Positions 33,027 through 64,000 of a DNA stretch of 64,000 nucleotides are shown here, one piece after another. Position numbers and translations under genes: made by a program. The stretch comes from Bacteroidota bacterium (GTDB taxonomy: Bacteria > Bacteroidota > Bacteroidia > 2-12-FULL-35-15), in assembly GCA_947449315.1 (NCBI GenBank), contig CANFRC010000009.1, forward strand, positions 71,157 to 135,156, in the 5' to 3' direction. Positions within the stretch are counted from its first letter, which is position 1. Each line of letters begins with the position of its first letter. The notes beneath the pieces are model-generated. The model saw nothing but the letters and a program-made list of their open reading frames with translations. It did not search any database and was not told where the DNA came from.

Positions 33027-33044
33027 TTCAATTGTCATTTAAAG

Positions 33045-37490: not shown

Positions 37491-37529
37491 TTCTTTCCTT
37501 TCATTACTTTTGTATGAAAGAACAAAAAA

Positions 37530-38027: not shown

Positions 38028-38279
38028 TACACGATTACCTAACCTTTATTTTTATTAACCGTTTAATTCTTAACCGTTTACAGTTCAATTAATTTCTTAA
38101 TTATTATTTGTATGTTAAAAATTCTTTGTATTATTGCAATGCGTTTCCGCTGTTATGTCTTCTCATAACAATTCACAATCTTACTTTTATCGAACAACTA
38201 AAAACACAAAACTTATATCTCATTACTACCCTTAACGATCATTCATTCGAAATGATTTTTTTAAATTAACACAAAAAAT

Positions 38280-39962: not shown

Positions 39963-40015
39963 TTTCTTAACTAGGCTCATGGTTAACAAACGATAATTTT
40001 TTTAGATTTTTTTAT

Positions 40016-40534: not shown

Positions 40535-40617
40535 GTTGAAAATTTGTTACATTTATTTTTTCCTCTCCTGAACAATCAGCCTTATTGATTGTTCAAGAAA
40601 AAAGACAATTAATCCCG

Positions 40618-43002: not shown

Positions 43003-43020
43003 ATGAATGGACGCCGCGTA

Positions 43021-44379: not shown

Positions 44380-44551
44380 TTTTATTTCAAATTATGATTA
44401 AAATATCATTCATTGACATTTTAAATTTGGAATAAACTTAGGAAATCAAACAACAAGAAGATGTAATTGCTTAAGAAGTTTTAAACACTCTGCTGTTATA
44501 TTATTTAATAAAGAAATAAATTTGAACCTAGCAGTTTCTAGGAAACAATAA

Positions 44552-45913: not shown

Positions 45914-45918
45914 CTCAT

Positions 45919-47397: not shown

Positions 47398-47465
47398 ATT
47401 TCAGTTGATCAACAAAGGGAAATACAAACCAAATCCACTATCAAAATTATGAAAAGGACAAAAAA

Positions 47466-49370: not shown

Positions 49371-49523
49371 AATGTACTACAAATATACTATTCCCCGCTG
49401 ATTATTACATCAAAAACAGGTCGAGTTTCGAAATGCATCGATTTGCTAATTTTGGGAATATTTTACTTTTTGTTTTACAATAGCAAATCTTTTTCTACAT
49501 TTGCATTCCTTAAAAAAAGGCTT

Positions 49524-49613
49524 TGGAGAGATGCCTGAGTGGCCGAAAGGAACAGTTTGCTAAACTGTCGTACTGGGAAACCGGTACCGAGGGTTCGAAT
49601 CCCTCTCTCTCCG
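49524..49613 (+). tRNA. tRNA-Ser (anticodon GCT), long variable arm
   Basis: GGAGAGA…TCTCTCC acceptor stem, D-loop AGTGGCCGAA, anticodon stem-loop ACAGT-TTGCTAA-ACTGT, long extra arm, T-arm GGTTCGAATCC. Confidence 0.85.
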
Positions 49614-49628
49614 CTGAAAAATTACAAA

Positions 49629-49668
49629 AGATCTGCTCTGATTATCAGGGCAGATCTTTTTGTTTTTA
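49629..49668 (+). terminator. hairpin plus T-run after tRNA-Ser
   Basis: agatctgctctga-ttat-cagggcagatct followed by tttttgttttt. Confidence 0.4.
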
Positions 49669-49890
49669 GCAATGACTAACCCTTGAATTTATCTCACTAA
49701 TTTTTATTTTGGGGATCAATAGCAATAAATACCTGTGCATTGCTTTCATTGGTATTGTTTGCGATCAAACGTGAATGAGATAAATTATGGTAAATAGTCA
49801 ATAGGAATTATAAACTTTTTTATTAAAATCTTTGCAGAATAAAAAATAATGGTACATTTGCATCCGCATTTATAGTTCTTTATAGTAGTT

Positions 49891-49964
49891 CGGGGCGTAG
49901 CGTAGTTGGTTATCGCGCCTGGTTTGGGACCAGGAGGTCGCAAGTTCGAGTCTTGCCGCCCCGA
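49891..49964 (+). tRNA. tRNA-Pro (anticodon TGG)
   Basis: CGGGGCG…CGCCCCG acceptor stem, anticodon stem-loop CCTGG-TTTGGGA-CCAGG, T-arm GGTCGCAAGTTCGAGTCTTGCC. Confidence 0.85.
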
Positions 49965-50048
49965 CAAAACAAGTGGTTAATGGTTATTTGTTATATTTTA
50001 CTTATAACATATTATCGTTAACCATTTTTGTTAGTAGCCTTTTAAAAT

Positions 50049-50122
50049 GATCCCATAGCTCAGCTGGATAGAGCAACGGTTTTCTAAACCGTAGGCCTTT
50101 GGTTCGAATCCAAATGGGATCA
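50049..50122 (+). tRNA. tRNA-Arg (anticodon TCT)
   Basis: GATCCCA…TGGGATC acceptor stem, D-arm TAGCTCAGCTGGATAGAGCA, anticodon loop TTTCTAA, T-arm GGTTCGAATCC. Confidence 0.85.
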
Positions 50123-50180
50123 CTAAAGCATACTGATAATCAATTAGTTAGCTGTTTGTATTGACAATATTATTGACAAA

Positions 50181-50218
50181 AAAAGGGTTTCTGATTAATT
50201 TCTGAAACCCTTTTTTTG
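50181..50218. terminator. strong bidirectional hairpin terminator downstream of the tRNA cluster
   Basis: aaaaaaagggtttctga-ttaat-ttctgaaaccctttttttg: 11-bp stem flanked by an A7 and a T7 run. Confidence 0.5.
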
Positions 50219-50285
50219 TAATAAAAATAACTGATGAGAATCTATTCTGAGTAATCTAAAAGAAGAAACATAAGTAACATCCAAA

Positions 50286-50398
50286 ATGCTGATAAATCCA
50301 TATTATGTTTATGGTGGTTCAGGTGTTATCCTGATTTTAACAACAGCAGTTATTATTTTGATTTTTAAAAGGAAAAATAAGACCGATGAAGTCGCATA
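50286..50398 (+). CDS. putative 37-aa hydrophobic single-TM peptide (unlisted small ORF)
   Basis: ATG…TAG ORF MLINPYYVYGGSGVILILTTAVIILIFKRKNKTDEVA: hydrophobic core plus basic C-terminus. No RBS can be judged. Speculative. Confidence 0.2.
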
Positions 50399-50651
50399 GA
50401 ATGTTTGTAATCATCAATGCTAATCGCTGATCATCACTTTTCATCGTTTTTAATCGCATTTCAGCGATTAACATCGCTGTTCATCGCTGAGAAGCGCATC
50501 TCATTTCTCAAAAAACTACCCGCTATCGACTCATCATCAATTGAAAAAACTGCTCTTTTTTAGAGTTTTACAGGCTTTATTAAGTTACACAAATCTGTAA
50601 CGTAATAAACATTTATACATTTTACAATACATTGTAAAATGCTGAATTTAG

Positions 50652-50832
50652 TATAAAGAAGCTTTGCGTCATACCAATGTTGCTTTGATAAAAGTGTTGG
50701 AAGGCTTGAACAATAATGTGACTGGCGATTTCTTAGCGATGGATATCCGCACCTCGCTTCATCATCTGGGTGAGAACACCGGAGAAATTTCGAGTGACGA
50801 TCTATTAGCGATTTTTTTTAGTCGATTTTGTA
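50652..50832 (+). pseudogene. mnmE: 3'-terminal fragment (last ~60 codons) of tRNA-modification GTPase gene mnmE (trmE/thdF), truncated by upstream in-frame stops
   Basis: In-frame translation [63 protein letters not shown] matches the conserved MnmE C-terminus, including the terminal FCIGK. Stops (TGA, TAG) lie immediately 5'. No G-domain is present. Confidence 0.7.
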
Positions 50833-51035
50833 TCGGGAAGTAATTTTTTTGTTTTTGGAGCAGTCAATTTTTGTAAAAAAAAATAAGGCTGTCATGAGTT
50901 TGAACTGAAAAAAGCAGCAGTAAACGGGGGGCAACATGTTTATTTTATTGAAAAAGAGTTTCCAATTAAAAAATCATTGGGATGGCGGGAAAATATATGA
51001 AACATAAAAAATGAAAAAATCATAAAATGTTTACA

Positions 51036-51043
51036 TAAATTTG
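51036..51043 (+). promoter_or_regulatory. TAnnTTTG (-7) promoter element (TAAATTTG) about 30 nt upstream of the island's cysteine desulfurase gene
   Basis: Exact motif in a ~230-nt very AT-rich leader. Confidence 0.3.
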
Positions 51044-51072
51044 TATCTTACAAGAGATAAAAGCAAAAACTA

Positions 51073-52227
51073 GTGAATATATCTAAAGATTTAATTTATC
51101 TTGATAATAATTCGACAACAAAAGTTGATGATAGGGTTATTGATGCAATGATTCCAATCATGACAGAATGCTATGGAAATCCCTCTAGCTCTCACCCATT
51201 TGGAAAAGAAATTCATCAATTAATTATTGAAGCCAGAAAAAACGTTTCAAATCTAATTAGTTGCGAACCTAAAGAAATAATATTCACATCCGGAGCAACT
51301 GAAGCTATTAACTTAGCTTTAAAAGGAATTGCCCAATCCTCTCATTTCAATAGAAAAAAAATAGTAACTTTCTCAACGGAACACAAAGCCGTTTTAGATA
51401 CTTGTAAAATCCTTGAAAACCAAGGATTTGAAATTGTAATCCTTCCTGTAAATAATGATGGTACCGTTGACATAGCTTTATTATCCAATGTTGTCGATCA
51501 AGAAACACTTCTTGTTGCTGCAATGTTCGTAAATAACGAAACTGGAGTTATTCATGATATTAAAAAAATGGCTGAAATTACCCATAATATGGGAGCAATT
51601 TTCTTTTGTGATGGCACACAGGCTGTAGGAAAAATTAAAGTAGACATAAATGAACTCGATGTTGATATGCTATGCTTTTCAGGTCACAAGTTTCACGGAC
51701 CAAAAGGAATTGGAGCATTATATGTAAACAATTCTATAAAAAATAAAATTCAAGCACAACAAACTGGTGGTGGACAGGAATCCGGATTAAGAAGTGGAAC
51801 TTCCAATACTGGAGGAATTGTTGGTTTAGGTGAAGCATGCAAAATAGCTGTAATAGAAATAAAAGAAACTGAAGTCAAAGTCGCAAAGCTAAGAGACCAA
51901 TTAGAGTCTGAACTTTTACAAATTCCAGGGACATTTATTAATGGTAATATAAAAAATCGAATTTATAACACTACTAACATTTGCTTCCCTAAAAATGACG
52001 CAAATGTAATAATAGGAAGATTAAAGAAAATTTCTGTAAGTAATGGTTCTGCATGTACATCTTTAATTGTTGAACCATCACATGTTTTATCTGCGATGGG
52101 TTTAGATAATGATTTGGCCTTTGCCTCCCTTCGCTTCTCATTAAGTAGATACAACAATATAAATGAAGTAAAAAAAGTTGTTAAAGAATTAAGTAATATT
52201 CTGATTCCAAATTTAATTATAAATTAA
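51073..52227 (+). CDS. cysteine desulfurase (class V aminotransferase, IscS/NifS/DndA/SspA-like); GTG start
   Basis: LIYLDNNSTTKVDDRV (IscS N-terminus), PLP-lysine motif FSGHKFHGPKGIGALYV, catalytic Cys loop SNGSACTS. 384 aa. Confidence 0.85.
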   Translation: MNISKDLIYLDNNSTTKVDDRVIDAMIPIMTECYGNPSSSHPFGKEIHQLIIEARKNVSNLISCEPKEIIFTSGATEAINLALKGIAQSSHFNRKKIVTFSTEHKAVLDTCKILENQGFEIVILPVNNDGTVDIALLSNVVDQETLLVAAMFVNNETGVIHDIKKMAEITHNMGAIFFCDGTQAVGKIKVDINELDVDMLCFSGHKFHGPKGIGALYVNNSIKNKIQAQQTGGGQESGLRSGTSNTGGIVGLGEACKIAVIEIKETEVKVAKLRDQLESELLQIPGTFINGNIKNRIYNTTNICFPKNDANVIIGRLKKISVSNGSACTSLIVEPSHVLSAMGLDNDLAFASLRFSLSRYNNINEVKKVVKELSNILIPNLIIN

Positions 52228-52231
52228 AAAA

Positions 52232-52447
52232 ATGGAACAGACTCTAGCAAATACCACAAATTGGCTAAAAAGTAAAGAGGTTGAAAGTAAATTGAAAGTT
52301 TATAATAGTCATTTAATGCATTTAAGACTTGAAAGTAAATTAAGTTATACCAAAAACGGGAATTCATTTTTCTACAAAAAAAGTGATGTTAAGAAAATTA
52401 AAGCTATTTTTAAAAACTCAATAATTTCAAAGAGTAGAAATAAATAG
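52232..52447 (+). CDS. small DNA-binding protein, HTH_17 (excisionase/AlpA/MerR-like) candidate
   Basis: 71 aa. …LKSKEVESKLKVYNSHLMHLRLESKLSYTKNGNSFFYKKSDVKKI fits the helix-turn-helix … wing … F..DV pattern of HTH_17. It starts 4 nt after the desulfurase stop. Confidence 0.35.
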   Translation: MEQTLANTTNWLKSKEVESKLKVYNSHLMHLRLESKLSYTKNGNSFFYKKSDVKKIKAIFKNSIISKSRNK

Positions 52448-52534
52448 AGAAAATGAATTATAAAATTGAGCCTCAAAAAAGGAAAGTTGATCTTTTTAAG
52501 GAGCTTAACAGAGTTTTAGAAGAAATTGAAAATT

Positions 52535-54115
52535 ATGATAAATGATATTAAAGAATTAATTTGTGATTTACCTGATGGAAAAAAAAGAAATTATTTAGGT
52601 CAACTTTTCGTACAGTCGCTGAGTAATTATTACTCCAATTTTGGAGTTGATGAAGAAATTGATTTAGATGAACTTCTTGTTAGAAACATCAAAGAAATTA
52701 TTATTGAGGATGAATTATTGAAAGACTTAAAATTATTCGTTTCAAAAAAATTAGAAGAACTTTTTAATCTAAATTCTAATGATATAAGTGAACTTAGAAT
52801 TAAAGATCTTCGAGCAAAACTGATTTCACATTTTGAAATAAAATTTGAAATCGATCAAACAGCTGATAGAATATATGAGAATAATTTAATCTGTAAATTT
52901 CCACTTCATGATTTTCAAGATCGAATTAGGAGAAAAGTCATAAATTTAATTTTCGATAATCAGAAACGATTTTTGATTCATATGCCGACTGGTTCTGGTA
53001 AAACAAGAACCGCAGCAGAGGTTATTTTAGATTTTATTCGATTATCTTCAAGCAAATCCTTGTTAAATGATAAAATAAAAATTCTATGGATAGCGCAATC
53101 CAGCGAACTTTGTTATCAAGCTTATGAAACAGTAAAACTTATAATAGAAAATAAAGGAACTCAAAATATAAGTTTGGCAAATTATTATGGTAATCAAGAG
53201 TTGCCAAATGATATAGAAAACAAATCAGCTGTAATTTTCTGCGGTATTCAAAAATTACTTTTACATTATACAGATGATATTTGGAGAAATATAAAAAATA
53301 ATACTTATTTAGTTATCGTTGATGAAGCGCATAGATCGGTAGCAAATCAATGGGTACAAGCATTAGATTATTTTGTGTCAGATCAAAGCGTATATTTATT
53401 AGGATTAACTGCGACACCTGGACTGGGTACAGTTAATGAAGATAGAACATTTTTGCTATCTACTTATTACCAAAGTAATAAGATAACAATAACGGATTCA
53501 AATTATGAAGAAATACCAAATCCAATTAATGAGTTAGTAAAATTAAAATTTTTGGCTCAAATAAAACGAATTGATATTGATTCGAAAGTTGTTATTGAAA
53601 ATGGTGTAGACACCTCTGACGAAAATGAAATTAAATTTTCAAATAATACTTTAGATGAATTGACTGCGAATCAACAACGAAATGCTTCAATTATTAATAT
53701 AATAAAAGAAAATCATTTAAAGAAGAAAAAAATGCTGGTTTTCACTTGTGGGTTAGAGCATAATCGTATTTTAAAATCCATATTAACAGATTTGAATATA
53801 GTTTCAGAAACTATTGATCAAAGTACTACAAATAGAAATTCTATAATTGATAGATTTAAAGATAGCAATAGTGGTCTCGATATTTTACTAAATTTTGGCA
53901 TTTTAACTACTGGATTTGACGCTCCTAAAACCGATGTATGTATCATTGCTAGACCTATTTCTTCAATTGTAATGTATTCACAAATGGTTGGAAGAATATT
54001 GCGAGGGCCAAAAAATAATGGAAACGATGAAAATACACTCTACACTATAAAAGACAACCTTGGTCACGGTGACTATGATAATCTATTTAATTCATTTAAT
54101 AATTTTTATAAATAA
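52535..54115 (+). CDS. superfamily-2 DEAD/DEAH-type helicase (restriction Res-subunit-like) with ~130-aa N-terminal domain of unknown function. The ORF is open from TTG 52526.
   Basis: Motif I HMPTGSGKTRTAA, motif II LVIVDEAHRS, motif III LGLTATPG, motif VI YSQMVGRILRG. Confidence 0.8.
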   Translation: MINDIKELICDLPDGKKRNYLGQLFVQSLSNYYSNFGVDEEIDLDELLVRNIKEIIIEDELLKDLKLFVSKKLEELFNLNSNDISELRIKDLRAKLISHFEIKFEIDQTADRIYENNLICKFPLHDFQDRIRRKVINLIFDNQKRFLIHMPTGSGKTRTAAEVILDFIRLSSSKSLLNDKIKILWIAQSSELCYQAYETVKLIIENKGTQNISLANYYGNQELPNDIENKSAVIFCGIQKLLLHYTDDIWRNIKNNTYLVIVDEAHRSVANQWVQALDYFVSDQSVYLLGLTATPGLGTVNEDRTFLLSTYYQSNKITITDSNYEEIPNPINELVKLKFLAQIKRIDIDSKVVIENGVDTSDENEIKFSNNTLDELTANQQRNASIINIIKENHLKKKKMLVFTCGLEHNRILKSILTDLNIVSETIDQSTTNRNSIIDRFKDSNSGLDILLNFGILTTGFDAPKTDVCIIARPISSIVMYSQMVGRILRGPKNNGNDENTLYTIKDNLGHGDYDNLFNSFNNFYK

Positions 54116-54121
54116 TCAACT

Positions 54122-55918
54122 ATGAGTAATAAAAGACCACTAATGGGTACAGATAATATCCTTGGGTTACAAGATAACGGATATAAAAGTACTGTTTCTG
54201 CTATTTCTGAAATAATTGATAATAGTATTCAAGCACATGCAACAAATGTTGACATTGTTATTATTAGAAATACTACTCGAGAATCGGATGAAATTGACGA
54301 AATTATGATAATTGATGACGGAGATGGAATGGATCAAAATATTTTTGACAAGGCTCTTCAAATGAGCTCAGGAAGTAGATCAAAAGCAAAATCAGGCTTA
54401 GGTAAATATGGCCAAGGCTTACCTAATTCATCTATTTCTCAAACAAAAAGAGTCGAAGTTTATACCATGCAAAAGGGGAAAATACTTTATAATCATATTG
54501 ATTTAAATGAAATTTACGAAAGTCAACAACCCTATTTACCAGATACCGAAAAAAGAAATGAAATTGATATTCCTATTTTCAAATCTAAAAAATTAAAAGC
54601 ACCTGAAACTGGTACAATAGTAAGATGGGTTAATCCTAATAAAGTAAAACCTAAAACTGCTAGAACATTAGCAACACATATTGAACAAATAGCTGGTCGA
54701 ACATTCAGATATTTTATTAATGGCTTTAAAGACAATGATGGAAAGATTTATAAATGTAATATAAACATTTTAGTCTTTGATTTTAATGGTAAAAATTATG
54801 AACCTGATAATTTTATTACAAAGAAAAATATTCTACCATTTGACCCTATGTTTCTTATGCCAGCAACGCAAATGAATAAATTGTTTCCAGAGAGCAGTCA
54901 TCCAACTAGTAGTATATTTGATGAAAAAATCAAGAAAGAATTTAAAGTTATATACAATAATGAAAAAGTAAAAACAATTGTTGAAATTAAATTATCCTAT
55001 TGCAATAAAAAAGAACGTGATAGATATGGACGAAATGCCGGTGGTGAACCTTTTGGAAAAAAGTACTTGAATAGAAATTTGATTGGTACATCTGGATACA
55101 ATAATATTTCAATAATTCGCGCCGGAAGAGAAATTGATTACGGAAGTTTTGGTTTTATTTTAGATGCTTCTGAATCAACAAATAGATGGTGGTCTGCTGA
55201 AATTTTAGTTGAGCCAGTTATAGATTCTATTATTGGTATCGATAATAAAAAACAACAAGCTTCACAAATTCAATTTGTCGACAATCAGACATCTGAGGAT
55301 TATGACCATCATGAAATTATTCGATGGATTTCTACATTTCTTACGCAAAACATTAAAAGTGTTAAGACAATTATCGAATTGCAAAATGCGTCCTCTAATG
55401 GTACAACTGCTAAGGGGAAAGGAAAAGGACCAAAACTTCCTCCCGGGGGAGGAACTGAGCCAGGAAACTCAGGAAATCCAGGCGCTAATCCTGACGATGA
55501 TGAAATGAAAAAAGTTAAGAAGGAATTATTTGAATGGATAAAAGAAAGATACCCAAAACTGAAAGATGATGAAATATGGGAAATCGTAGATTACGCATTC
55601 AGTATAAAGGATTGTCATATTTTTATTAAATCAGATTTAGGAGATACACAGCTATACAGTTATAAGGTTTTTGGCACTAAAGTTTTGATAGAAATTAATT
55701 ATACTCATAGTTTTTATAAAAGATTTATTCAAGGGTTTGAAGAAGACCCAAGTCAAGAAAAATCATTACGTTCAATCAGATTATTGATAGGTGCCATGGT
55801 TAATGCAGAAATTGTGAATGGTACTGATGAAAAAGAAATACTTAAAGATAGACGGAATATTAAAAATAGGATGTCAGAATGTTTAGAGGATTATATCGAG
55901 GATTTATACGCAAGTTAA
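54122..55918 (+). CDS. GHKL-superfamily ATPase (HATPase_c; prokaryotic MORC / MutL-like) with long C-terminal extension
   Basis: Bergerat-fold boxes: N box EIIDNSIQAHA, G1 box IIDDGDGMD, G2 box GKYGQGL. 598 aa. It starts 7 nt after the helicase stop. Confidence 0.8.
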   Translation: MSNKRPLMGTDNILGLQDNGYKSTVSAISEIIDNSIQAHATNVDIVIIRNTTRESDEIDEIMIIDDGDGMDQNIFDKALQMSSGSRSKAKSGLGKYGQGLPNSSISQTKRVEVYTMQKGKILYNHIDLNEIYESQQPYLPDTEKRNEIDIPIFKSKKLKAPETGTIVRWVNPNKVKPKTARTLATHIEQIAGRTFRYFINGFKDNDGKIYKCNINILVFDFNGKNYEPDNFITKKNILPFDPMFLMPATQMNKLFPESSHPTSSIFDEKIKKEFKVIYNNEKVKTIVEIKLSYCNKKERDRYGRNAGGEPFGKKYLNRNLIGTSGYNNISIIRAGREIDYGSFGFILDASESTNRWWSAEILVEPVIDSIIGIDNKKQQASQIQFVDNQTSEDYDHHEIIRWISTFLTQNIKSVKTIIELQNASSNGTTAKGKGKGPKLPPGGGTEPGNSGNPGANPDDDEMKKVKKELFEWIKERYPKLKDDEIWEIVDYAFSIKDCHIFIKSDLGDTQLYSYKVFGTKVLIEINYTHSFYKRFIQGFEEDPSQEKSLRSIRLLIGAMVNAEIVNGTDEKEILKDRRNIKNRMSECLEDYIEDLYAS

Positions 55919-56220
55919 ATTAACTAATTAATATGATTTTCAAATCTGATTTGGCTTTTGATATTAAAAAAAAGTAAGAGCAGTAATTATTTAACTAACT
56001 TAAAAATCTTGCAGTAGAATATTATAATTTTATTTTGTAAAAATTATTTGGATTAATTCACGAATAAAAAATGTAATACTTATTAGATAACTGCTTTAAT
56101 TTATTAAAAACTGTATTTTCAGCAATTTCATCTTTTATTTCCTTTAGGAAACACTAGAGATAAATCATTTCTCACTATATATAGTGTAAAGTTATTATTA
56201 TTCACTAATGTTTTACAATT

Positions 56221-57183
56221 ATGCTATATAGAAGTGGAGAAAATTTAGAACATGGCGCAATTAATTTCGTAAATAATTGCGAAACAGTAACATTATATTC
56301 AGCATATCTTAAATTGGATGAATTAAAGAAAATAAATGAACATAAAAAAATAAAGCAAATTATTGTCAGATGGGAAATTGAAGATCTTTGTAGAAAAATT
56401 TCAGATATCGAACTATTTCTATACTGCAAAGAAAATAGTATTGTATTATACCGAAATACTCGCATTCACTTAAAAGCCTTTTGGGATAATAAATCAGATG
56501 TGTTTTTTGGTTCTGCAAATGTTACCAACAAAGGCCTTGGCGAAAACGGGAACTTCAATTTTGAATTAAATGGCGCATTAAAGGGAATAAGTTTTGCTGA
56601 CCAAACTTATTTCAATAAATTAATATTAGACAGCGAATATGTTACAGACGACCTTTATAATAAGTTATTGGACTTAATTGAAAGTGTTGTTTTGCCAACA
56701 TTTGATTTCCCAAAACTTCCAACTCCTCCACCAACAGTAGAATATTTTTTAATTAATCAGCTTCCAATGACAACGAGTCCTGAATTACTTTTTGAAATCT
56801 ATAGTGGACAGATGAAAAATGAAATAGAAATGAATTGTGCAGCACATGACTTAGAGTTGTATCGCATACCAAAAGGACTAACTAAAACTGTTTTTTTTGA
56901 CCAATTAAAACAAACATTCAACAATCATCCTTTTATATTGGAATTTAAAGTTACAATTAAAAATTCTGTCGATGAATTAAACCGAACTGATAGGAATGGA
57001 AGTATGACTTTTGGATCTGTTAAACGATGGTTTCAAGATAAAACTACTACTGTTCCCACACCCCGCTCATTTGAATTGAATGATTATGTAAATATATTAT
57101 ACGATTGGATCTGCCATTTCGATAATTGTTACAGCCATTCCATTCCAGGAGGGTACTCTCAGGTAATTAAGTATATTTGCTAA
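56221..57183 (+). CDS. phospholipase D-family nuclease, single HKD motif (Nuc/BfiI-like)
   Basis: HLKAFWDNKSDVFFGSANVTNKG matches HxK(x)3-4D(x)6GSxN. Only one copy is present, implying dimeric use as in Nuc. The C-terminal ~150 aa are unassigned. Confidence 0.65.
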   Translation: MLYRSGENLEHGAINFVNNCETVTLYSAYLKLDELKKINEHKKIKQIIVRWEIEDLCRKISDIELFLYCKENSIVLYRNTRIHLKAFWDNKSDVFFGSANVTNKGLGENGNFNFELNGALKGISFADQTYFNKLILDSEYVTDDLYNKLLDLIESVVLPTFDFPKLPTPPPTVEYFLINQLPMTTSPELLFEIYSGQMKNEIEMNCAAHDLELYRIPKGLTKTVFFDQLKQTFNNHPFILEFKVTIKNSVDELNRTDRNGSMTFGSVKRWFQDKTTTVPTPRSFELNDYVNILYDWICHFDNCYSHSIPGGYSQVIKYIC

Positions 57184-57262: not shown

Positions 57263-58837
57263 ATGAAAATTGAAGCTTTAAAAAATCAAATTGTTTCAGG
57301 AGGTAGAACATATCCGATATTCATTGCTTTTATAGAAGCGGAGTTAGTATTAAAATACTCTGTTGTTCCAAATTTTAGTAATGATGATCATGAAGAGGCA
57401 ATTGCGGTGAATATAAAAAGTAAACCTGTAAAAAAATGGCAGCGCCCTCTAATTCAATCGAAAGTTGATGAACTGATTAAAACGTTTAATAATACTGGGG
57501 AATTCATGCCAAATCCTGTTCTGTTATCAGAAAATCCACTGCGAACAAGTAAATCACAAGAAAAAATTAAGGCCTACCCTAAAATTATCGGAGGGCAAAC
57601 TAGTTCTGTTTGGGAAATAAGTTTACCTGAAGAAAAAGAGGTCTTGTGGATTATTGACGGACAGCACAGAATTACAGGTTTAGGAGATGTTGATTGTAAA
57701 CAAAATTCAAATATTGTTCCGGTAGTGCTTTTATTAAACCCTGATACTGTTTTCTATACCCCCCCTGACTTTGCAAAAATATTTGCGCAAGTTTCAACGA
57801 CAGCTTCAGAATTAAGACCACTTCATAAAGAATGGTTGCAGTATTCTTTTGAACTGGCAAAATACGAAGGGAAGCAGTGGCAGGATTCAATGTCTACTGT
57901 GGTTGAGCTATGTGCCCACACAGAATTTATAGACCGAGGCACCACCTACCCTAATCCATATTGGGACAAAATTGTTTTTAACGATGCCAATTTAGAGAAT
58001 AATATGCGTCTAAATTGTCAAGTATTCGCAGAAATAATTCACTCAGAATATTATAATAGAAAACCAGAATACAATCATTTTGCTCCGACTGAACTAGCTG
58101 TTCTTGTTGAAAAAGCGTTCTTTCAGCTTCGTCACACAATACCAAATCCTGACCTTTCGGTGTTTTTTGGAAGCGAATCTACGATTCGTCACGTTGTTTC
58201 AATTAAGGCATATATCAGAGGCATATTAACCTATATCCTAAAATATTGCGACCCTCAAGATTCAAGCAAAACACCTGATTTGAATGCATGGAAAAATGTA
58301 TATGAAACTTTATATTTTAACAAAACTGATTTTAATTGGGCTTTACATTCTATGACTGGTGAAGCGTGGTATTCAAAGTCGGAAATTTTGGCGAATGTCG
58401 TATTTAAAGAAGCTTTTAGATCTTTGACAATCCCTGATGGTGCCGTAGATTTAACTCATTGTATTTGTCTTGGAAATAATCAATTTATAGAACTGGAATT
58501 AACAAACAATGTAGGAGTTTCTACCACAAAAAAAATCACGAGTAACACAACAGTTATAAATGACCCGGGGAATATTTCAAATATAAAAATTGTAAACAAA
58601 TCATTTAATTGCGAATTAATCAGTATCGTTGACCAAAAAACTACCCATAATTATCCTCAAAAGTTCAATATGGATTATGCGCGAAAAAATAAAGGAAAAG
58701 GAATAGATGTTCCTTTTACAAAGCCTGCAACAAAAAGTAAACCCGCATACGATACAACAAAAAACTTCAATCTTGAAGTCAAAATAACACGCTATGGCGG
58801 GGGGACTGATACAATGGTAATTAAATTTCACATTTAA
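57263..58837 (+). CDS. DGQHR-domain protein (DndB-like family), 524 aa
   Basis: Diagnostic motif VLWIIDGQHRITGL. Upstream QRPLIQSKVDEL is the DndB-type region. It is ~150 aa longer than canonical DndB, with an extra C-terminal region. Confidence 0.8.
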   Translation: MKIEALKNQIVSGGRTYPIFIAFIEAELVLKYSVVPNFSNDDHEEAIAVNIKSKPVKKWQRPLIQSKVDELIKTFNNTGEFMPNPVLLSENPLRTSKSQEKIKAYPKIIGGQTSSVWEISLPEEKEVLWIIDGQHRITGLGDVDCKQNSNIVPVVLLLNPDTVFYTPPDFAKIFAQVSTTASELRPLHKEWLQYSFELAKYEGKQWQDSMSTVVELCAHTEFIDRGTTYPNPYWDKIVFNDANLENNMRLNCQVFAEIIHSEYYNRKPEYNHFAPTELAVLVEKAFFQLRHTIPNPDLSVFFGSESTIRHVVSIKAYIRGILTYILKYCDPQDSSKTPDLNAWKNVYETLYFNKTDFNWALHSMTGEAWYSKSEILANVVFKEAFRSLTIPDGAVDLTHCICLGNNQFIELELTNNVGVSTTKKITSNTTVINDPGNISNIKIVNKSFNCELISIVDQKTTHNYPQKFNMDYARKNKGKGIDVPFTKPATKSKPAYDTTKNFNLEVKITRYGGGTDTMVIKFHI

Positions 58838-58838
58838 A

Positions 58839-59381
58839 ATGATTTTTACTGAATTAAATAATTTCAGAATCGAAATTTCTAAAAAATACGTAAATCATCT
58901 TTCTGTGTCATTTATTGTTGGATGGGAAAAATGTAGAAAATCATTAGAAACCGAAAAAGATACATATGAATTAATTTTAAAAAAATTAGCACTACTGCAT
59001 CCCGAACACTACTACTTAATTTTAAAAACTGAAACCAGTAGGATTAATAGCAAAATTGAACTAATTCAAGGAAATAGATCCTTTCCGCAGATTGATGACA
59101 CCGAAAAATGTCAATCTGAAGAACTTTGGGGGTATATTTGTCCTTTTACAATAGAAAACAAGGTTCAAGATCATGAATTTCCATACTCCTTAGGAGGCCC
59201 TACAAATAAGGCATTTAATAGAAGAATACTTTGCAGATGGCATAATATGATAAAAGCTAACGACATCCATAATTATCCCTGGGAAAAACTATTTAATCAA
59301 TATGAATATTATATAAAAACCAACAGGGTGCACTGGGTTGATGAACAATTAAATAAAATCATAAAAGAATTCAATTTGTAA
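58839..59381 (+). CDS. HNH endonuclease
   Basis: CPFTIENKVQDHEFPYSLGGPTNKAFNRRILCRWHNMIK: Cys…D-H…N…C..H-N pattern of the HNH beta-beta-alpha-Me finger. The start is 2 nt after the DGQHR gene stop, so the two are translationally coupled. Confidence 0.6.
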   Translation: MIFTELNNFRIEISKKYVNHLSVSFIVGWEKCRKSLETEKDTYELILKKLALLHPEHYYLILKTETSRINSKIELIQGNRSFPQIDDTEKCQSEELWGYICPFTIENKVQDHEFPYSLGGPTNKAFNRRILCRWHNMIKANDIHNYPWEKLFNQYEYYIKTNRVHWVDEQLNKIIKEFNL

Positions 59382-59651: not shown

Positions 59652-59908
59652 TCATCCACTAAAATATTTTTTTCCAAGCGCAGCAGCAAAGCCAACTTCA
59701 AGAGTTAAACCATAACCTGAAGGATTATCCTTTTGCAATCCCAAAGAGTATATTCAATTGGAGAAAGTAATTCGTGCTCTCTTGGATTAAAAAAAACAAC
59801 ATTACTTTTACCGACATTTTTAATAACTAGAGATTGCCAATCTATGATATTCATCCCACCTGAAAGAAATATTTTAGAGTCCATCATTTTGTGTATTAAA
59901 TAAAACAA
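59652..59908 (-). pseudogene. nucleoside 2-deoxyribosyltransferase-like small gene interrupted by a +1 frameshift near 59740-59755
   Basis: Frame A (59908-59705) encodes MMDSKIFLSGGMNIIDWQ…NVVFFNPREHE (N-terminal KI(Y/F)L(A/S)G(P/G) motif). Frame B (59753-59652) encodes …SGYGLTLEVGFAAALGKKYFSG*, the D/G..(T)..E.G.A.A.GK C-terminal signature of PF05014-like proteins. The frames overlap and differ by one nucleotide. Confidence 0.35.
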
Positions 59909-60996
59909 CTAGCACAACCCGCATCATCGTCTTCTAGTATATCAATTAGAAGAGATGATTTTTTCTGTGCATTCTTTTCAGTTTTTTTTATGTAATCTTC
60001 TTTTATCTGTTGAATTCTTTCAGGCTTAATTAAATCACCTAAGGCCTCCTCACTCCATGAGTATCCAGTTTTTTCATATTCCAAAGCCTTGTTAAAAAGA
60101 TCAGGGTGCTGTTCGTAAAGCCAAACCCACTCTATTTTCTGCTGGTAAAAACAAAAATAGCATCCTGAGCGGCTTCGTGCATACTCCCCCATTTTACCGT
60201 TTACTTCAAATTTAATCTTTTTATAATACTCAGGCACTCCAACTCCACTTTCTTCTAGTATTTTAAAAATGTCACTTTTAATTAAGATATCCTCATTATC
60301 CAGCAAAGCAAAATCATTTTCCATTGCAAGAGGGTACTCTGTAGTTTTCAGAAATTGAAATACTAAATGATTAAAACCTTTGATGTCGGTATCTAAAATA
60401 GCATTCAATTTATGTTTTAAGGTAAATGAAGTGTCTATTTTCTTAGAAATTAATGCTTCAAACTTTTCTTTATTTCTGCCCCAGTATACATTTGAAAACA
60501 TCGGCATAACTTTATCTAAATTTTGATTGGATAAAACCTTAGCAATAACATCTTCACTCCAAATGTTTTTTCGAAAAGGGAAAATCGATTGAATATTTTT
60601 TTTGGTAGAAATATAACCTTCTCTTTCCTCATCACCTCTGATGCCAACGTAAGAAACTACAGGATCATTTCCAACGTATTTCTCAAAGGGGTCAAGCTTT
60701 AAGGTCTTTGTGCACCATCTAGCAGTTGCAGAAGGCAAATAACCACCATGCAACGTCAAAAAATGATCAAATGGATCAGCTTCCGAAGTCTCTCTTGTTG
60801 CCAAAAGTAAATTAATTTTGATTCCTAAATAAACCTCCAAATTTTTTATCAGTTGGTAAGTTTCGTCAAGCTCCTTTCCAGTATCACATGAATAAAACTC
60901 CAAATCAATGCTTGGATATTTTGTTTTCATATAAATAGCTAAAGCAGCACTATCTTTTCCACCTGAAATCCCTAAAACGTGTCTTGTCTTTTTCAT
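59896..60996 (-). CDS. PAPS-reductase-family PP-loop ATP pyrophosphatase (DndC/SspD/BrxP-like), 366 aa
   Basis: N-terminal PP-loop HVLGISGGKDSAA. C-terminal Cys cluster (RSGCYFCFYQ … DAGCASCFI) as in DndC-type proteins. The start ATG overlaps the upstream gene's stop (TA[A]TG). Confidence 0.8.
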   Translation of the reverse strand: MKKTRHVLGISGGKDSAALAIYMKTKYPSIDLEFYSCDTGKELDETYQLIKNLEVYLGIKINLLLATRETSEADPFDHFLTLHGGYLPSATARWCTKTLKLDPFEKYVGNDPVVSYVGIRGDEEREGYISTKKNIQSIFPFRKNIWSEDVIAKVLSNQNLDKVMPMFSNVYWGRNKEKFEALISKKIDTSFTLKHKLNAILDTDIKGFNHLVFQFLKTTEYPLAMENDFALLDNEDILIKSDIFKILEESGVGVPEYYKKIKFEVNGKMGEYARSRSGCYFCFYQQKIEWVWLYEQHPDLFNKALEYEKTGYSWSEEALGDLIKPERIQQIKEDYIKKTEKNAQKKSSLLIDILEDDDAGCASCFI

Positions 60997-63900
60997 TATT
61001 TCAATAAATCCTTCAATAGATTAACCAATGCAGCAATATTCAATGTTTTATCTGAAGAAAGTTTCTTTTTTAATTGTTCCTTAATTTCATTTATCTCCAA
61101 CTCTTTCTTCTTAGGTATTTTTACGATTTTAGGTGCAATTCCACTAAAAAACGAGTCAATTTTAACGGCTATAACTTCTTCCTTATCTTCATCAATATCA
61201 GTTTTAGAAATATTAGTCAACCCATCAAGTTGTATGATACAGTTTTTAAATTTTTCATACAAACTAATCTCGTCCTCATCTTTAAAGGTATCTAACGTTT
61301 TACCAACAGCAATTTGAGCAAGTGAGTTCAACCAAATCTTCTTATCGTCAATTTTCGAATTTATTCGTTGAACAAATACTTTCTGATCAGCTAATAGCAA
61401 ATGTTGCTTTAACTTTTTAAATCTCTGCTGCAGCTTTTCTTTGTAATCTTCAAAATCTAATTTATCATATACAATTTCATTACAAATAAATTCTTCAAAA
61501 CGCTCAACTAATAAATCATAACATGATCTTAACTCACGAATTGTGCTCTGCAAAGTATTTGTGTATTTCTGTAACTTCTTTTTATCCTTTTGTAGTTCTA
61601 AAACCGTAAAGTCTAAAGCTGCAGGAAATGCATTAAAAAATGTATCTTCTGGGTCTTTAGAGGAAGCTATAGAAGTCCTGATTTTAATAGCTTCTTTTGA
61701 AAGACGATTGGTTTGTTTTGAATATTCAGGCAATTGCTTGTAAAAAGTAAGAAATGGCTTTATTGTTTCAATAAATGACTTATTATCAATCTTTACCCCA
61801 GTAGCTTGATTCAAAAAAGTTCTATAACTATTGAATATATCTAATTTGACACCTTCAATATCGAATGCTTTTATTTTAAATTTCGCAGGTAACTTAGAAA
61901 CTAATTCTAAATTTTCATCAGAAAGATTAGGAACGTACCCTGTTTCTCCAAAAAGCGCAAAATCGTCACGTTTAATAAACAGGAAAGTTGGAATCCAAAA
62001 ATCAATTAAGCCTTGTTTGAGCTTAAATGGCCTTTTGCTTAATATATCGACAAGCTCATCAATAGACCTAGGTTCAATTTTCGTACTTGCAATAAACTTT
62101 TCTGATGTGTTCCAAAGATCCAAAAATGAAGAAGAATTTTCAACACTTGGTACATCAGTACTTCCATCTCTAATTGGAGAGATACCATTTTCTTTCATTA
62201 GAGAAAGAAAAATAGTTTTCTCTGGCGGGAATTTATCGTTTTCAAAACCAAGATTCTCCTTATCCCAATTATTTGCTAAAGCTTTAAAATAATTTTTCTT
62301 AGCCGAATGAATAGATGGAGAAATCCTATGTTTATTCATCAATTCATTAACAAATTCTGGAGTAGAACTATAAACCGAATCGCAAATTTTAGATAAAAAT
62401 TTATTAAATAATTTTTTGTCTGTTATTGTTTTCACTTCCCCGTCCTTCCAAAACCATCTAACGTCAAGATTGTTACTGAATAGATTAGCAACAATGTATT
62501 CATTTAATATTTTTTTCTGATGTGAAAGAATACTCTCTAACTCACGTTTAGCAACTTTATCATCGACATTTTCTTCAATTACTTTTTGAATTTTTTCAAT
62601 TTCGAAAAGCAAATCTTTAATTTCATTTGCATTTCTGTAGAAACCATAAATAACAGCATCTTGTTGATTAATAGCTATTTTTTCGAGTTCATTTAATTTA
62701 AGCTTTGAATTAAATATTAGATTTATATAACCATCTATTTCACCCGTAGGAATTTTTTCTATGGGATACTCTGAAATAACAAATTCGAAAAATCGAGGAG
62801 TACCCTTTTTATAGGAATGCTGCTTTGCCAATATTGGAGCAAAAGAAAAATATTTATTTAACAAAGTAGTTATATCAGTTACCTCAGATACTTTATTTGC
62901 AGCTTCAATAAGAGCTGTTTGTATATCCAAATCTGTACCTTCAAACAAAATATATCTTTGTGAATGGGCTCTATATAGTATAATTTTTTTCTGCTCAAGC
63001 TTTTGAATTAGTTCTCTACCGTTCTTTATTCCACAAGAAGTGATTAAATATTCATCTAGAAAAACAAGGTCTAATTTTGACCCACTAGCCGAAAAAATGT
63101 TAAGCAACCCTATTGTCTTAATAATTTTTGAATACTCAACTATAGAATCATCAAATGCTCTTTCAACTTCTTCAATAGCTGTTCTTATAGAAGACCATGC
63201 AGAAAAATCAGAATTATATTTTGAAGTTAAGTACGAATAAAAATTAAAAATTAAATAATCGTATACACAAGATAAATTATAAAAAGGATTGTCTTTTTTA
63301 TTAAACTTAGCTAAACCAGTATTATCTGTAGATTCTAGAAAAGAAAACAATGACCTTTCATTTTGCCCATATCTTTGAAGTGATAGGGTCAGTACATTAG
63401 CAGAAAGTATATCCAGAGGATATAATTTACTAGCAATTTGTTGTAGAAAATCCTTGTTAAAACTAAATGCTTTTGTATTTATATTAAGCTTTAATGACCT
63501 TTCTATAATAGCCTTTCCAGCTATTGCTTCAACCGTTTCACCAATATGTTCAGAAGCCAAGAACAGCAATTGTTCCACTGGCTCATTAAAAGTAATTTCC
63601 TTAAATCGTCCCTTAACTTTCGTCCACTCTTGCTTCTGTTGTCCTTGAAGTGAAAACGCATACGATTCAAAACTTTGATGAACGGTAGTAATAAAAACGA
63701 TATTATACTTTGGGTCATTGCAAAATTCAGCCAATTGTTGAATAAAATACAATTCATCTTCTGGACTATTTTTTGAAGCATACTCTAAAAATTTGCCAAA
63801 TTCATCAATAAGAAGGAAAAGGATTTTATTTCCCTTTCCCAATGAGTGATATCGATTGAAGATTTCAGAAAAAATATTTTCTTGTTTATTTTTGTTTGAT

Positions 63901-64000
63901 GTTATCTTAAGAAGATCCGCAAAAGTTTGTATAACACTGTTATATTCCCCAATCACCTTAAGGAAATCAACTTTAGGATTATCTATAAAATTAACATTGA
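60996..64000 (-). CDS. large (>1000 aa) ATPase-like protein, N-terminus lies beyond the window end. BrxC/PglY (DUF499) or SspC-like is a candidate family.
   Basis: The minus-strand frame is open from 60996 to the window edge with no stop; the listed GTG at 63956 is not the true start. A Walker-B-like GNKILFLLIDEFGKFLEY lies near the visible N-terminus. The remainder is a long, mostly alpha-helical K/E/L/I-rich body. No P-loop is visible in the window; it is presumably upstream. Confidence 0.55.
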   Translation of the reverse strand, partial: NVNFIDNPKVDFLKVIGEYNSVIQTFADLLKITSNKNKQENIFSEIFNRYHSLGKGNKILFLLIDEFGKFLEYASKNSPEDELYFIQQLAEFCNDPKYNIVFITTVHQSFESYAFSLQGQQKQEWTKVKGRFKEITFNEPVEQLLFLASEHIGETVEAIAGKAIIERSLKLNINTKAFSFNKDFLQQIASKLYPLDILSANVLTLSLQRYGQNERSLFSFLESTDNTGLAKFNKKDNPFYNLSCVYDYLIFNFYSYLTSKYNSDFSAWSSIRTAIEEVERAFDDSIVEYSKIIKTIGLLNIFSASGSKLDLVFLDEYLITSCGIKNGRELIQKLEQKKIILYRAHSQRYILFEGTDLDIQTALIEAANKVSEVTDITTLLNKYFSFAPILAKQHSYKKGTPRFFEFVISEYPIEKIPTGEIDGYINLIFNSKLKLNELEKIAINQQDAVIYGFYRNANEIKDLLFEIEKIQKVIEENVDDKVAKRELESILSHQKKILNEYIVANLFSNNLDVRWFWKDGEVKTITDKKLFNKFLSKICDSVYSSTPEFVNELMNKHRISPSIHSAKKNYFKALANNWDKENLGFENDKFPPEKTIFLSLMKENGISPIRDGSTDVPSVENSSSFLDLWNTSEKFIASTKIEPRSIDELVDILSKRPFKLKQGLIDFWIPTFLFIKRDDFALFGETGYVPNLSDENLELVSKLPAKFKIKAFDIEGVKLDIFNSYRTFLNQATGVKIDNKSFIETIKPFLTFYKQLPEYSKQTNRLSKEAIKIRTSIASSKDPEDTFFNAFPAALDFTVLELQKDKKKLQKYTNTLQSTIRELRSCYDLLVERFEEFICNEIVYDKLDFEDYKEKLQQRFKKLKQHLLLADQKVFVQRINSKIDDKKIWLNSLAQIAVGKTLDTFKDEDEISLYEKFKNCIIQLDGLTNISKTDIDEDKEEVIAVKIDSFFSGIAPKIVKIPKKKELEINEIKEQLKKKLSSDKTLNIAALVNLLKDLLK

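What the first reader, a model, noticed from the sequence alone, without database searches (positions are those of the whole stretch)
51073..52227. Island-dedicated cysteine desulfurase separate from housekeeping Fe-S machinery
This is a full IscS/NifS-type enzyme with the PLP lysine and the SxGSAC catalytic loop. It sits as the first gene of the island operon, with its own TAnnTTTG promoter and a GTG start. It is not near isc or suf genes. Dedicated desulfurases are the sulfur donors DndA and SspA of PT systems, and they also occur in thio-nucleoside pathways. Its position argues for sulfur mobilisation feeding the downstream PP-loop enzyme.
Basis: partly seen in the sequence, partly recalled or inferred. 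Interest (0 to 1): 0.55.

Follow-up and report, generated by a model that had tools for sequence, protein, structure and literature searches.

The report
SspA sulfur donor of a phosphorothioation island
This gene encodes an intact cysteine desulfurase that belongs to a strain-specific DNA-phosphorothioation (Ssp) defence island and most likely supplies its sulfur; this is a known kind of enzyme, here wired into an unusual operon.

Summary
Window 51073-52227 (+) is an intact 384-aa IscS/NifS-type cysteine desulfurase with a GTG start, PLP Lys206 and catalytic Cys328 in SNGSAC. No isc or suf gene lies in the 64 kb.

It is best read as SspA, the dedicated sulfur donor of an Ssp DNA-phosphorothioation system. 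SspD (59896-60996) and SspC (60996 to the window end) lie convergent to it.

- A conspecific contig is 99.7% identical up to 50914 and then diverges, 158 bp before the GTG. The gene is therefore accessory DNA, and its GC3 matches the island.
- All 11 homologues of at least 54% identity with readable context sit in Ssp or Pbe loci. They form one clade (NJ bootstrap 89/100).
- None of 78 more distant homologues has ssp or pbe genes nearby; five looked at sit beside iscU/iscA, sufS/sufE, Moco or other non-PT genes.

Dedicated PT desulfurases are already known, so this is a new member of a known kind. The less ordinary point is that sspA is not transcribed with sspBCD. It heads a helicase / GHKL ATPase / HKD nuclease cassette, and sister loci carry PbeABCD at that position. 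The same cassette recurs with Ssp genes in cyanobacterial and Treponema plasmids. Whether this genome has a second desulfurase could not be tested.

The parts
50915..51072 (+). Island-specific leader of sspA. The left edge of the strain-variable DNA is at 50914/50915. It holds a Bacteroidota -7-like motif, TAAATTTG, at 51036-51043.
   Evidence: Conspecific contig L093 is 99.7% identical to window 33021-50914 and unrelated beyond that point. Motif; it is not statistically enriched.
51073..52227 (+). sspA: group-I (IscS/NifS-type) PLP cysteine desulfurase, 384 aa, GTG start, Lys206, Cys328 in SNGSAC, and no IscS C-terminal tail.
52232..52447 (+). Small 71-aa protein starting 4 nt after the sspA stop. 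It is conserved after sspA in relatives (41-45% identity). Its sequence pattern resembles an Xis/MerR-type HTH, but this is not established.
   Evidence: No Pfam hit. The AlphaFold model is low confidence, pLDDT 66.
52526..54115 (+). SF2 helicase (ResIII/DEAD plus Helicase_C). Only distantly PbeA-like: 21% identity to a bona fide PbeA.
   Evidence: It is 30-32% identical over most of its length to helicases in cyanobacterial Ssp loci.
54122..55918 (+). GHKL-type ATPase (HATPase_c_3), 598 aa.
   Evidence: Homologues of 26-33% identity sit next to Ssp genes on cyanobacterial and Treponema plasmids.
56221..57183 (+). HKD/PLD-like putative nuclease, 320 aa. The motif HLKAFWDNKSDVFFGSAN fits HxK(x)4[D>N](x)6GSxN.
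   Evidence: Weak PLDc_2 hit. It is 25% identical over about 300 aa to annotated PLD-family proteins in cyanobacterial Ssp loci. The motif was read.
57263..58837 (+). DGQHR-domain (DndB/ParB-like) protein, 524 aa.
   Evidence: TIGR03187 7e-12, TIGR04172 5e-08, DpdB-like. Weak GmrSD_N and DndB hits.
58839..59381 (+). 180-aa protein with an HNH-like motif (DHEFPYSLGG...N...LCRWHN). With the DGQHR protein it may form a split SspE-like reader/nickase.
   Evidence: The motif was read from the translation. No profile hit. This is inference only.
59896..60996 (-). sspD: PP-loop/PAPS-reductase-type ATP pyrophosphatase and the presumed sulfur acceptor. It has C-terminal Cys motifs.
   Evidence: PADLOC SspD 1.1e-89 and Pfam PAPS_reduct.
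60996..64000 (-). sspC: BrxC-like AAA+ ATPase. Its N-terminal ~76 residues are cut off by the window end. sspB (DUF4007) is expected just beyond 64000.
   Evidence: PADLOC SspC E=0, profile positions 77-1038. The reading frame stays open to the window end. sspB lies upstream of sspC in relatives L008, L009, L090, L091 and L092.

Best explanation
The gene is sspA, the system-encoded cysteine desulfurase of a horizontally acquired Ssp DNA-phosphorothioation island in a Bacteroidota genome.

Mechanism (inferred from the enzyme family and from published SspA and DndA work): L-cysteine forms an external aldimine with PLP, displacing Lys206. Cys328, on the flexible SNGSAC segment, attacks the substrate sulfur. 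This yields alanine and an enzyme persulfide. The persulfide passes to the PP-loop enzyme SspD, which together with SspB and SspC places sulfur on a non-bridging phosphate oxygen of host DNA.

What is shown here: the catalytic residues are intact; the gene lies in strain-variable, island-composition DNA; its clade occurs only in Ssp or Pbe loci.

What is inferred: the enzyme activity, the transfer of sulfur to SspD, and independence from the housekeeping desulfurase.

sspA is not transcribed with sspBCD. It leads the operon of the putative PT-reading effector genes: helicase, GHKL ATPase, HKD nuclease, DGQHR and HNH. This arrangement would tie the supply of the sulfur donor to expression of the effectors.
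For: 1. Intact enzyme.
2. Ssp context in the window: SspD 1e-89 and SspC E=0.
3. Island membership: conspecific contig L093 is 99.7% identical up to 50914 and different beyond it. sspA GC3 is 0.19, like the neighbouring cassette genes (0.16-0.19), against 0.23-0.31 for core genes.
4. Clade-level linkage: 11 of 11 homologues of 54-85% identity with readable context are followed by the helicase cassette, PbeABCD or another gene, and all with enough flank have sspD and sspC. Of 78 homologues at 43-51% identity, none has ssp or pbe within 10 kb. Five inspected sit beside iscU/iscA, sufS/sufE, xanthine-dehydrogenase/Moco or other non-PT genes.
5. Phylogeny: the in-clade sequences are monophyletic in an NJ tree, bootstrap 89/100. 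They share signature residues (N324, the block 297-315) and a median length of 384 against 405, so they lack the IscS C-terminal tail.
6. Recurrence: desulfurases of other lineages (39% and 36% identity) sit in the same Ssp + helicase/GHKL/PLD gene set on cyanobacterial plasmids. A Treponema plasmid carries a class-V PLP enzyme, not detectably similar to this one and of unverified function, directly before the same helicase, but no sspD was found there.
7. Literature: an sspA knockout abolishes PT in V. cyclitrophicus despite iscS, and SspA pulls down with SspD (PMC7188994).
Against: - By sequence the protein is nearer to IscS/NFS1 (322 bits) than to the solved DndA (210 bits) or SspA (194 bits).
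- It falls below every NCBIfam equivalog cut-off, including DndA.
- The PADLOC SspA and DndA models do not discriminate between the two.
- It is not in the sspBCD transcription unit.
- sspB lies outside the window.
- A second desulfurase in this genome was not demonstrated, because the genome is not in the searchable genome collection.
- Several Ssp systems work with housekeeping IscS alone (PMC8092258), so a dedicated donor is not obligatory.
- There is no experimental evidence that PT exists in this organism.
Confidence: 0.85

Rival explanations
1. It is the organism's ordinary NifS/IscS-like housekeeping desulfurase, serving Fe-S assembly or tRNA thiolation, and merely lies next to a defence island.
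For: The best structural-database matches are IscS/NFS1. NCBIfam ranks NifS and IscS above DndA. A second desulfurase in this genome was not shown.
Against: - The conspecific genome diverges 158 bp upstream of the gene, so the gene is strain-variable.
- Its GC3 matches the neighbouring cassette genes, not the core.
- Its clade is found only in Ssp or Pbe loci, 11 of 11.
- More distant homologues of 48-51% identity, some with Bacteroidota-like neighbours, fall outside the clade and lie in suf or other contexts.
- No iscU, iscA or suf gene is in the window.
- It lacks the IscS C-terminal tail.
Confidence: 0.04
2. The desulfurase mainly builds or repairs the Fe-S cluster of SspD, as DndA does for DndC, rather than donating the sulfur atom that ends up in DNA.
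For: DndA is reported to assemble the 4Fe-4S cluster of DndC (cited in PMC7188994 and PMC10853773). The window SspD carries Cys-rich motifs (SGCYFCF, GCASCF).
Against: This reading does not exclude the main one. Published models treat the desulfurase persulfide as the sulfur source for PT, and SspA binds SspD directly (PMC7188994). Nothing in the sequence separates the two roles.
Confidence: 0.08
3. The desulfurase works for the downstream helicase/GHKL/HKD (or Pbe) cassette itself, for example in a second sulfur-dependent step, and not for SspBCD.
For: sspA is linked more tightly to that cassette than to sspBCD. In L008, L009 and L091 its stop overlaps pbeA by 8 nt, while variable genes separate it from sspD. 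In the window it sits on the opposite strand from sspBCD.
Against: - The cassette has no PP-loop enzyme and no evident Fe-S cysteine cluster.
- In L090 the helicase cassette is absent but sspA and sspBCD remain.
- In archaeal dndCDEA-pbeABCD, the catalytic-Cys mutant of DndA abolishes PT itself (PMC6459918).
Confidence: 0.03

Closest known systems
SspA of Vibrio cyclitrophicus FF75 (PDB 6M4J; PMC7188994)
   Same: A dedicated PLP cysteine desulfurase encoded with sspBCD. The catalytic Cys, PLP Lys and substrate Arg are conserved. The expected partner is SspD.
   Different: Sequence similarity is modest: 194 bits, lower than to IscS. The FF75 enzyme is 348 aa in the crystal construct, with its Cys on a short helix. 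The window gene is not in the sspBCD operon but heads a helicase/GHKL/HKD operon.
DndA of Streptomyces lividans (PDB 3VAX), and DndA in haloarchaeal dndCDEA-pbeABCD (PMC6459918)
   Same: A NifS-like desulfurase dedicated to DNA phosphorothioation. In the archaeal locus the desulfurase gene directly precedes pbeA, as sspA does in sister Bacteroidota loci L007-L010 and L091.
   Different: The window has no dndC, dndD or dndE; the partners are SspC and SspD. The TIGR03235 DndA score of 352 is below its cut-off of 480. The window carries a helicase/GHKL/HKD cassette instead of bona fide PbeABCD.
E. coli IscS (PDB 1P3W) and mitochondrial NFS1
   Same: The same group-I fold and chemistry. Lys206 and Cys328 carry identical numbering. 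Identity is about 44-47%.
   Different: It lacks the ~20-residue C-terminal tail: 384 aa, aligned only to residue ~373 of 404. It has SNGSAC instead of SSGSAC and a diverged 297-315 block. No iscU, iscA or other isc neighbour is present. It scores below the IscS equivalog cut-offs.
Cysteine desulfurase recently linked to type 4 BREX PT systems (PMC12839542)
   Same: A system-encoded desulfurase accompanying BrxC/SspC-like, PAPS-reductase and DUF4007 components.
   Different: The window has no PglZ or BrxL, and SspD is not fused to DUF4007.

Membership tests
Group-I (IscS/NifS-type) cysteine desulfurase, Pfam PF00266 | Full-length class-V aminotransferase fold above the Pfam gathering score | tested here: met
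   PF00266 scores 282.9 bits against a cut-off of 21.5, covering profile positions 1-371 of 371.
Group-I (IscS/NifS-type) cysteine desulfurase, Pfam PF00266 | PLP-binding lysine in SGHK and catalytic cysteine in the S-x-GSAC-T/S-S segment, plus His104, Asp180, Gln183 and Arg354 | tested here: met
   Lys206 and Cys328 align with those of human NFS1, the printed top hit; E. coli IscS scores the same. All the listed residues are invariant in 20 relatives.
Housekeeping IscS (TIGR02006 / NF010611) | Score at or above the curated equivalog cut-off | tested here: not met
   402.5 against 643.2, and 411.7 against 548.
Housekeeping IscS (TIGR02006 / NF010611) | C-terminal extension (about residues 376-404), and an operon with iscU, iscA, hscBA and fdx | tested here: not met
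   The protein is 384 aa and the alignment ends near IscS residue 373. The clade median length is 384 against 405. No IscU or IscA homologue lies in the 64 kb window.
NifS (TIGR03402) | Score at or above the curated cut-off | tested here: not met
   425.2 against 530.75. No nif genes are in the window (by inspection).
DndA (TIGR03235) | Score at or above the curated cut-off, and linkage to dndBCDE | tested here: not met
   352.5 against 480. The PP-loop neighbour matches SspD at 1e-89 but DndC only at 7e-05, and no DndD or DndE is present.
SspA (desulfurase of SspABCD, defined by role) | Match to an SspA profile | tested here: inconclusive
   PADLOC SspA gives 5.1e-149, but DndA gives 1.7e-147, so the profile does not discriminate. 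The solved SspA 6M4J scores below IscS.
SspA (desulfurase of SspABCD, defined by role) | Encoded in the same locus as sspB, sspC and sspD | tested here: met
   sspD and sspC lie 7.7 kb away in the window. sspB is beyond the window end but is present upstream of sspC in relatives, including the close relative L092 (81% SspA). Linkage holds across the whole clade, 11 of 11, against 0 of 78 outside it.
SspA (desulfurase of SspABCD, defined by role) | Required for single-strand PT modification and not replaceable by housekeeping IscS; physical interaction with SspD | not testable with these tools
   This needs genetics, LC-MS/MS and pull-downs. The precedent is PMC7188994. The counter-examples, where IscS suffices, are in PMC8092258.

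The most novel reading that the evidence does not exclude
sspA is hard-wired as the first gene of an as yet unnamed Ssp-associated effector module: a small protein, an SF2 helicase, a GHKL ATPase and an HKD nuclease.

- In sister Bacteroidota loci this position is occupied by PbeABCD.
- The module recurs next to Ssp genes on plasmids of Cyanobacteriota and Spirochaetota, with desulfurases of other lineages (cyanobacteria) or an unrelated class-V PLP enzyme (Treponema). Related helicase+GHKL pairs also occur without Ssp genes (Agrobacterium plasmid), so the linkage to PT is not universal.

If real, this would be a further PT-coupled restriction partner of SspBCD beside SspE and SspFGH. Most sspBCD clusters (83.9% in PMC8092258) have no known partner. 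Its expression would be transcriptionally, and in the Pbe loci translationally, coupled to the sulfur donor. I found no description of this module in the searchable literature.
Probability: 0.45. Interest if true: 0.6.

Novelty: new member of a known kind. Interest (0 to 1): 0.32.

Why it matters
For the gene itself the result is confirmatory. It is one more PT-dedicated desulfurase, and it defines a Bacteroidota clade with recognisable signature residues. That clade could improve annotation, because current HMMs and NCBIfam cut-offs cannot separate SspA, DndA and IscS.

The broader value lies in the wiring. In this clade the sulfur donor travels with, and is co-transcribed with, the presumed PT-reading effectors rather than with SspBCD. 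The same helicase/GHKL/HKD module recurs with Ssp genes in at least three phyla. This gives a concrete candidate for the missing restriction partner of the many 'orphan' sspBCD clusters. It also gives a testable idea of how modification capacity and restriction are kept in step.

Tried and rejected
- **Genome-collection scan.** A scan with the protein found only a 31% Erysipelothrix hit.
- **NCBI contig look-ups.** The look-up of the window SspD failed. Cluster look-ups returned no organism names for island or core proteins beyond 'Bacteroidia/Bacteroidota bacterium' for a MoxR cluster.
- **Upstream alignment.** sspA upstream regions from relatives do not align, so there is no phylogenetic footprint for the promoter. 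An exact TAnnTTTG is absent upstream of most relatives.
- **Sigma-70 and terminator scan.** It gave background-level counts and is not informative for Bacteroidota.
- **SspFGH as the cassette's identity: rejected.** There are no PADLOC hits, and the published domain content differs: Walker A and an FtsK-like protein (PMC8092258).
- **Bona fide PbeABCD as the cassette's identity: rejected.** The helicase is 21% identical to a true PbeA, and the HKD protein shows no significant similarity to PbeA.
- **Structure prediction of the 71-aa protein.** The single-sequence model is low confidence, pLDDT 66, so no fold search was run.
- **Thio-nucleoside or Dpd (7-deazaguanine) pathway: rejected.** Only a weak DpdB-like DGQHR hit exists, and there are no DpdA/TGT-type genes.

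Full report
**1. The observation**

Window 51073-52227 (+) is a 384-codon ORF with a GTG start. The GTG is the only start codon upstream of the conserved N-terminal IYLDNNSTT. Relatives also use GTG or TTG, so the unusual start looks real.

Pfam Aminotran_5 covers the whole protein at 4.9e-84. The alignment to human NFS1 (the printed top hit; E. coli IscS 1P3W scores the same) places SGHKFHGPKG on SGHKIYGPKG, giving PLP Lys206. It places VSNGSACTS on LSSGSACTS, giving catalytic Cys328. H104, D180, Q183, S203, H205, K206, C328 and R354 are invariant in 20 relatives. The enzyme therefore looks intact.

A TAAATTTG (TAnnTTTG) motif lies at 51036-51043. The motif is not over-represented in the window (97 found, 100 expected). 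It is not exactly conserved upstream of relatives. It is a reasonable Bacteroidota -7 candidate and no more than that.

No IscU, IscA, SufS, SufE or DUF59 homologue occurs anywhere in the 64 kb, and no second class-V aminotransferase either. The other ORFs look like ordinary Bacteroidota housekeeping genes, such as uvrA, rho, aroC, hutI, the bat operon and mpl.

**2. The surroundings**

Downstream on the + strand lie six genes:
- a 71-aa protein, starting 4 nt after the sspA stop;
- an SF2 helicase (ResIII/DEAD/Helicase_C);
- a GHKL ATPase (HATPase_c_3);
- a 320-aa HKD/PLD-like protein;
- a DGQHR (DndB/ParB-like) protein;
- a 180-aa protein with an HNH-like motif.

Convergent on the - strand are SspD (PADLOC 1.1e-89) and SspC (E=0). 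SspC matches profile positions 77-1038, and its frame is open to the window end, so it is cut by the window and is not a pseudogene. sspB (DUF4007) is expected just past 64000. It lies upstream of sspC in every relative where that region is visible. The locus is therefore an Ssp single-strand DNA-phosphorothioation system, and the desulfurase is its SspA.

**3. Is it island DNA?**

A conspecific metagenomic contig (L093, 470 kb) is 99.7% identical to window 33021-50914 and then becomes unrelated. It carries a 343-aa HNH_4 protein instead. The variable region thus starts 158 bp before the sspA start codon and includes the promoter-like motif.

The break lies just after a tRNA-Ser/Pro/Arg cluster and after a roughly 60-codon mnmE-like 3' fragment that both strains share.

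sspA GC3 is 0.19, like the helicase and GHKL genes next to it (0.16-0.19; sspD is 0.27) and below the core genes (0.23-0.31). The exact core proteins occur on many contigs, whereas the island proteins occur on one.

The island is also mosaic. It holds a 36-codon remnant of a NERD-helicase gene at 56061-56168 and a remnant of a 144-aa gene at 52444-52539. Both mark genes that are intact in relative L002.

**4. Dedicated or housekeeping?**

Sequence profiles cannot decide this.
- PADLOC SspA and DndA score alike: 5e-149 and 2e-147.
- All NCBIfam equivalogs (NifS, IscS, DndA) fall below their cut-offs.
- IscS/NFS1 structures score higher (322 bits) than the solved DndA (210 bits) or SspA (194 bits).

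Context and phylogeny do decide it. I looked at the neighbourhoods of homologues across the identity range: 85, 81, 68, 63, 58, 56, 56 and 54-55%, plus L001, L005 and L010. All 11 are Ssp or Pbe loci.

As a control, 80 metagenome loci with homologues at 43-56% identity were fetched. Of the 78 that fall outside the clade, none has sspC, sspD or pbe within 10 kb. Five inspected lie next to other genes:
- iscU-iscA (L016);
- sufS-sufE-DUF59 (L011);
- xanthine-dehydrogenase and Moco genes (L012, L014);
- other, non-PT genes (L018).

In an NJ tree of 197 sequences, the 118 close homologues plus L010 form one clade that excludes all other controls. L010 is itself followed by pbeABC. The split has 89/100 bootstrap support on a 50-taxon subsample.

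The clade has signature residues: N324 in the catalytic segment (SNGSAC against SSGSAC), a diverged block at 297-315, S38 and C304. Its median length is 384 aa against 405, so it lacks the IscS C-terminal tail.

Together these results make a housekeeping role unlikely. The direct test, a second desulfurase in the same genome, could not be run because the genome is not in the searchable collection.

**5. How it most likely works**

By family knowledge and published work on SspA and DndA, the steps are as follows. Cysteine binds PLP. Cys328 takes the sulfur as a persulfide. The persulfide is handed to the PP-loop enzyme SspD. SspD, with SspB and SspC, installs PT on host DNA.

In V. cyclitrophicus FF75 an sspA knockout abolishes PT despite a chromosomal iscS, and DndA cannot replace it. 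SspA co-purifies with SspD; that pull-down used the Shewanella frigidimarina proteins (PMC7188994). Other Ssp systems lack sspA and use IscS (PMC8092258; PMC12914056). A dedicated donor is therefore common but not obligatory.

These steps are inferred for the window gene. What is shown here is the intact active site and the genomic linkage.

**6. The unusual wiring**

sspA is not in the sspBCD transcription unit. It heads the operon of the putative effectors.

In the closest relatives the order sspA, small protein, helicase, GHKL, HKD is conserved. In the more distant half of the clade sspA is followed by bona fide PbeABCD, with PADLOC PbeA at E=0. There the sspA stop overlaps the pbeA start by 8 nt, while variable genes separate sspA from sspD. 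This mirrors the archaeal dndCDEA-pbeABCD order (PMC6459918).

The window helicase is only 21% identical to PbeA, and the HKD protein is not detectably similar to it. The window cassette is therefore analogous to Pbe and is not a member of that family. It is not SspFGH either (PMC8092258).

The same triad recurs next to Ssp genes on plasmids. The helicase is 29-32% identical, the GHKL ATPase 26-33%, and the PLD 25% over about 300 aa in the cyanobacterial loci but only a short 85-aa match in Treponema.
- The hosts are Trichormus, Planktothrix, Geminocystis and Treponema.
- The two cyanobacterial loci that encode a desulfurase use other lineages (39% and 36% identity). Treponema has a class-V PLP enzyme, with no detectable similarity to the window protein, directly before the helicase, and no sspD was detected in that locus.
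- An Agrobacterium plasmid has a related helicase+GHKL pair with no Ssp genes nearby, so the pair is not always PT-linked.

Repeated recruitment of different desulfurases into one gene set suggests selection for a system-encoded sulfur donor. I found no description of this module in the papers searched.

**7. Verdict**

The gene is a new member of a known kind, a PT-system desulfurase (SspA role) of IscS/NifS ancestry. Its interest is modest.

The more novel and still unproven reading is that the sspA-led helicase/GHKL/HKD operon is an undescribed PT-coupled effector module.

Noticed in passing
window 50650-50842 (+): A roughly 60-codon fragment matches the C-terminus of the tRNA-modification GTPase MnmE (ending ...FFSRFCIGK*), with no upstream ORF. 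It is also present, slightly diverged, in the conspecific contig L093. It is therefore a shared gene remnant beside the variable hotspot, not part of the island.
   Followed up: partly
window 49525-50123 (+): A tRNA-Ser(GCT), tRNA-Pro(TGG) and tRNA-Arg(TCT) cluster lies about 0.8 kb before the point where conspecific genomes diverge. This is a likely integration or defence-island hotspot. TAnnTTTG motifs sit just upstream of tRNA-Ser (49496) and tRNA-Pro (49853).
   Followed up: partly
L093 1-1069 against window 50915 onward: The conspecific strain (99.7% identical core) carries a different gene at this site, a 343-aa protein with an HNH_4 domain. The 470-kb contig ends there. The locus is therefore a strain-variable defence hotspot.
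   Followed up: partly
window 56061-56168 (-) and 52444-52539 (+): These are deletion scars. The first is the opening 36 codons of a NERD/UvrD-type helicase gene (67% identity to L002). The second is the last ~32 codons of a 144-aa gene (75% identity). Both genes are intact in relative L002. The scars explain the 300-nt and 78-nt intergenic gaps inside the operon.
   Followed up: partly
window 57263-59381 (+): A DGQHR (DndB/ParB-like) protein is immediately followed by a 180-aa protein with an HNH-like motif (DHEFPYSLGG..N..LCRWHN). Close relatives have a single GmrSD_N/SspE-like protein of 712-779 aa after sspD instead. The pair may be a split SspE-like PT reader and nickase.
   Followed up: partly
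window 56221-57183 (+): The 320-aa protein has a single HKD-type motif, HLKAFWDNKSDVFFGSAN, with Asn at the canonical Asp position. Pfam PLDc_2 matches only weakly (E=0.0066). The protein is nevertheless 25% identical over ~300 aa to annotated PLD-family proteins in cyanobacterial Ssp loci.
   Followed up: partly
window 52232-52447 (+): This 71-aa protein is conserved directly after sspA in the subclade of at least 63% identity. Its invariant pattern is WLxSKxV..LK...L.H.R...K.GN.F.Y. The pattern resembles an Xis/MerR-type HTH, but there is no profile hit and the structure model is low confidence.
   Followed up: partly
L099 (Treponema saccharophilum pTS1, NZ_AP025289.1): The gene order is sspB, sspC, a class-V PLP enzyme, helicase, GHKL and PLD. 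No SspD/PAPS-reductase was detected by tblastn. The PLP enzyme shows no detectable similarity to the window SspA. This may be an Ssp variant with a different sulfur-insertion enzyme, or the plasmid gene table may be incomplete.
   Followed up: no
window 51073; L002 7852; L003 3700; L004 10001; L007 10001: Non-ATG start codons (GTG or TTG) are conserved for sspA across the subclade of at least 63% identity. The Pbe-linked subclade uses ATG. This may reflect tuned, low translation of the sulfur donor.
   Followed up: no
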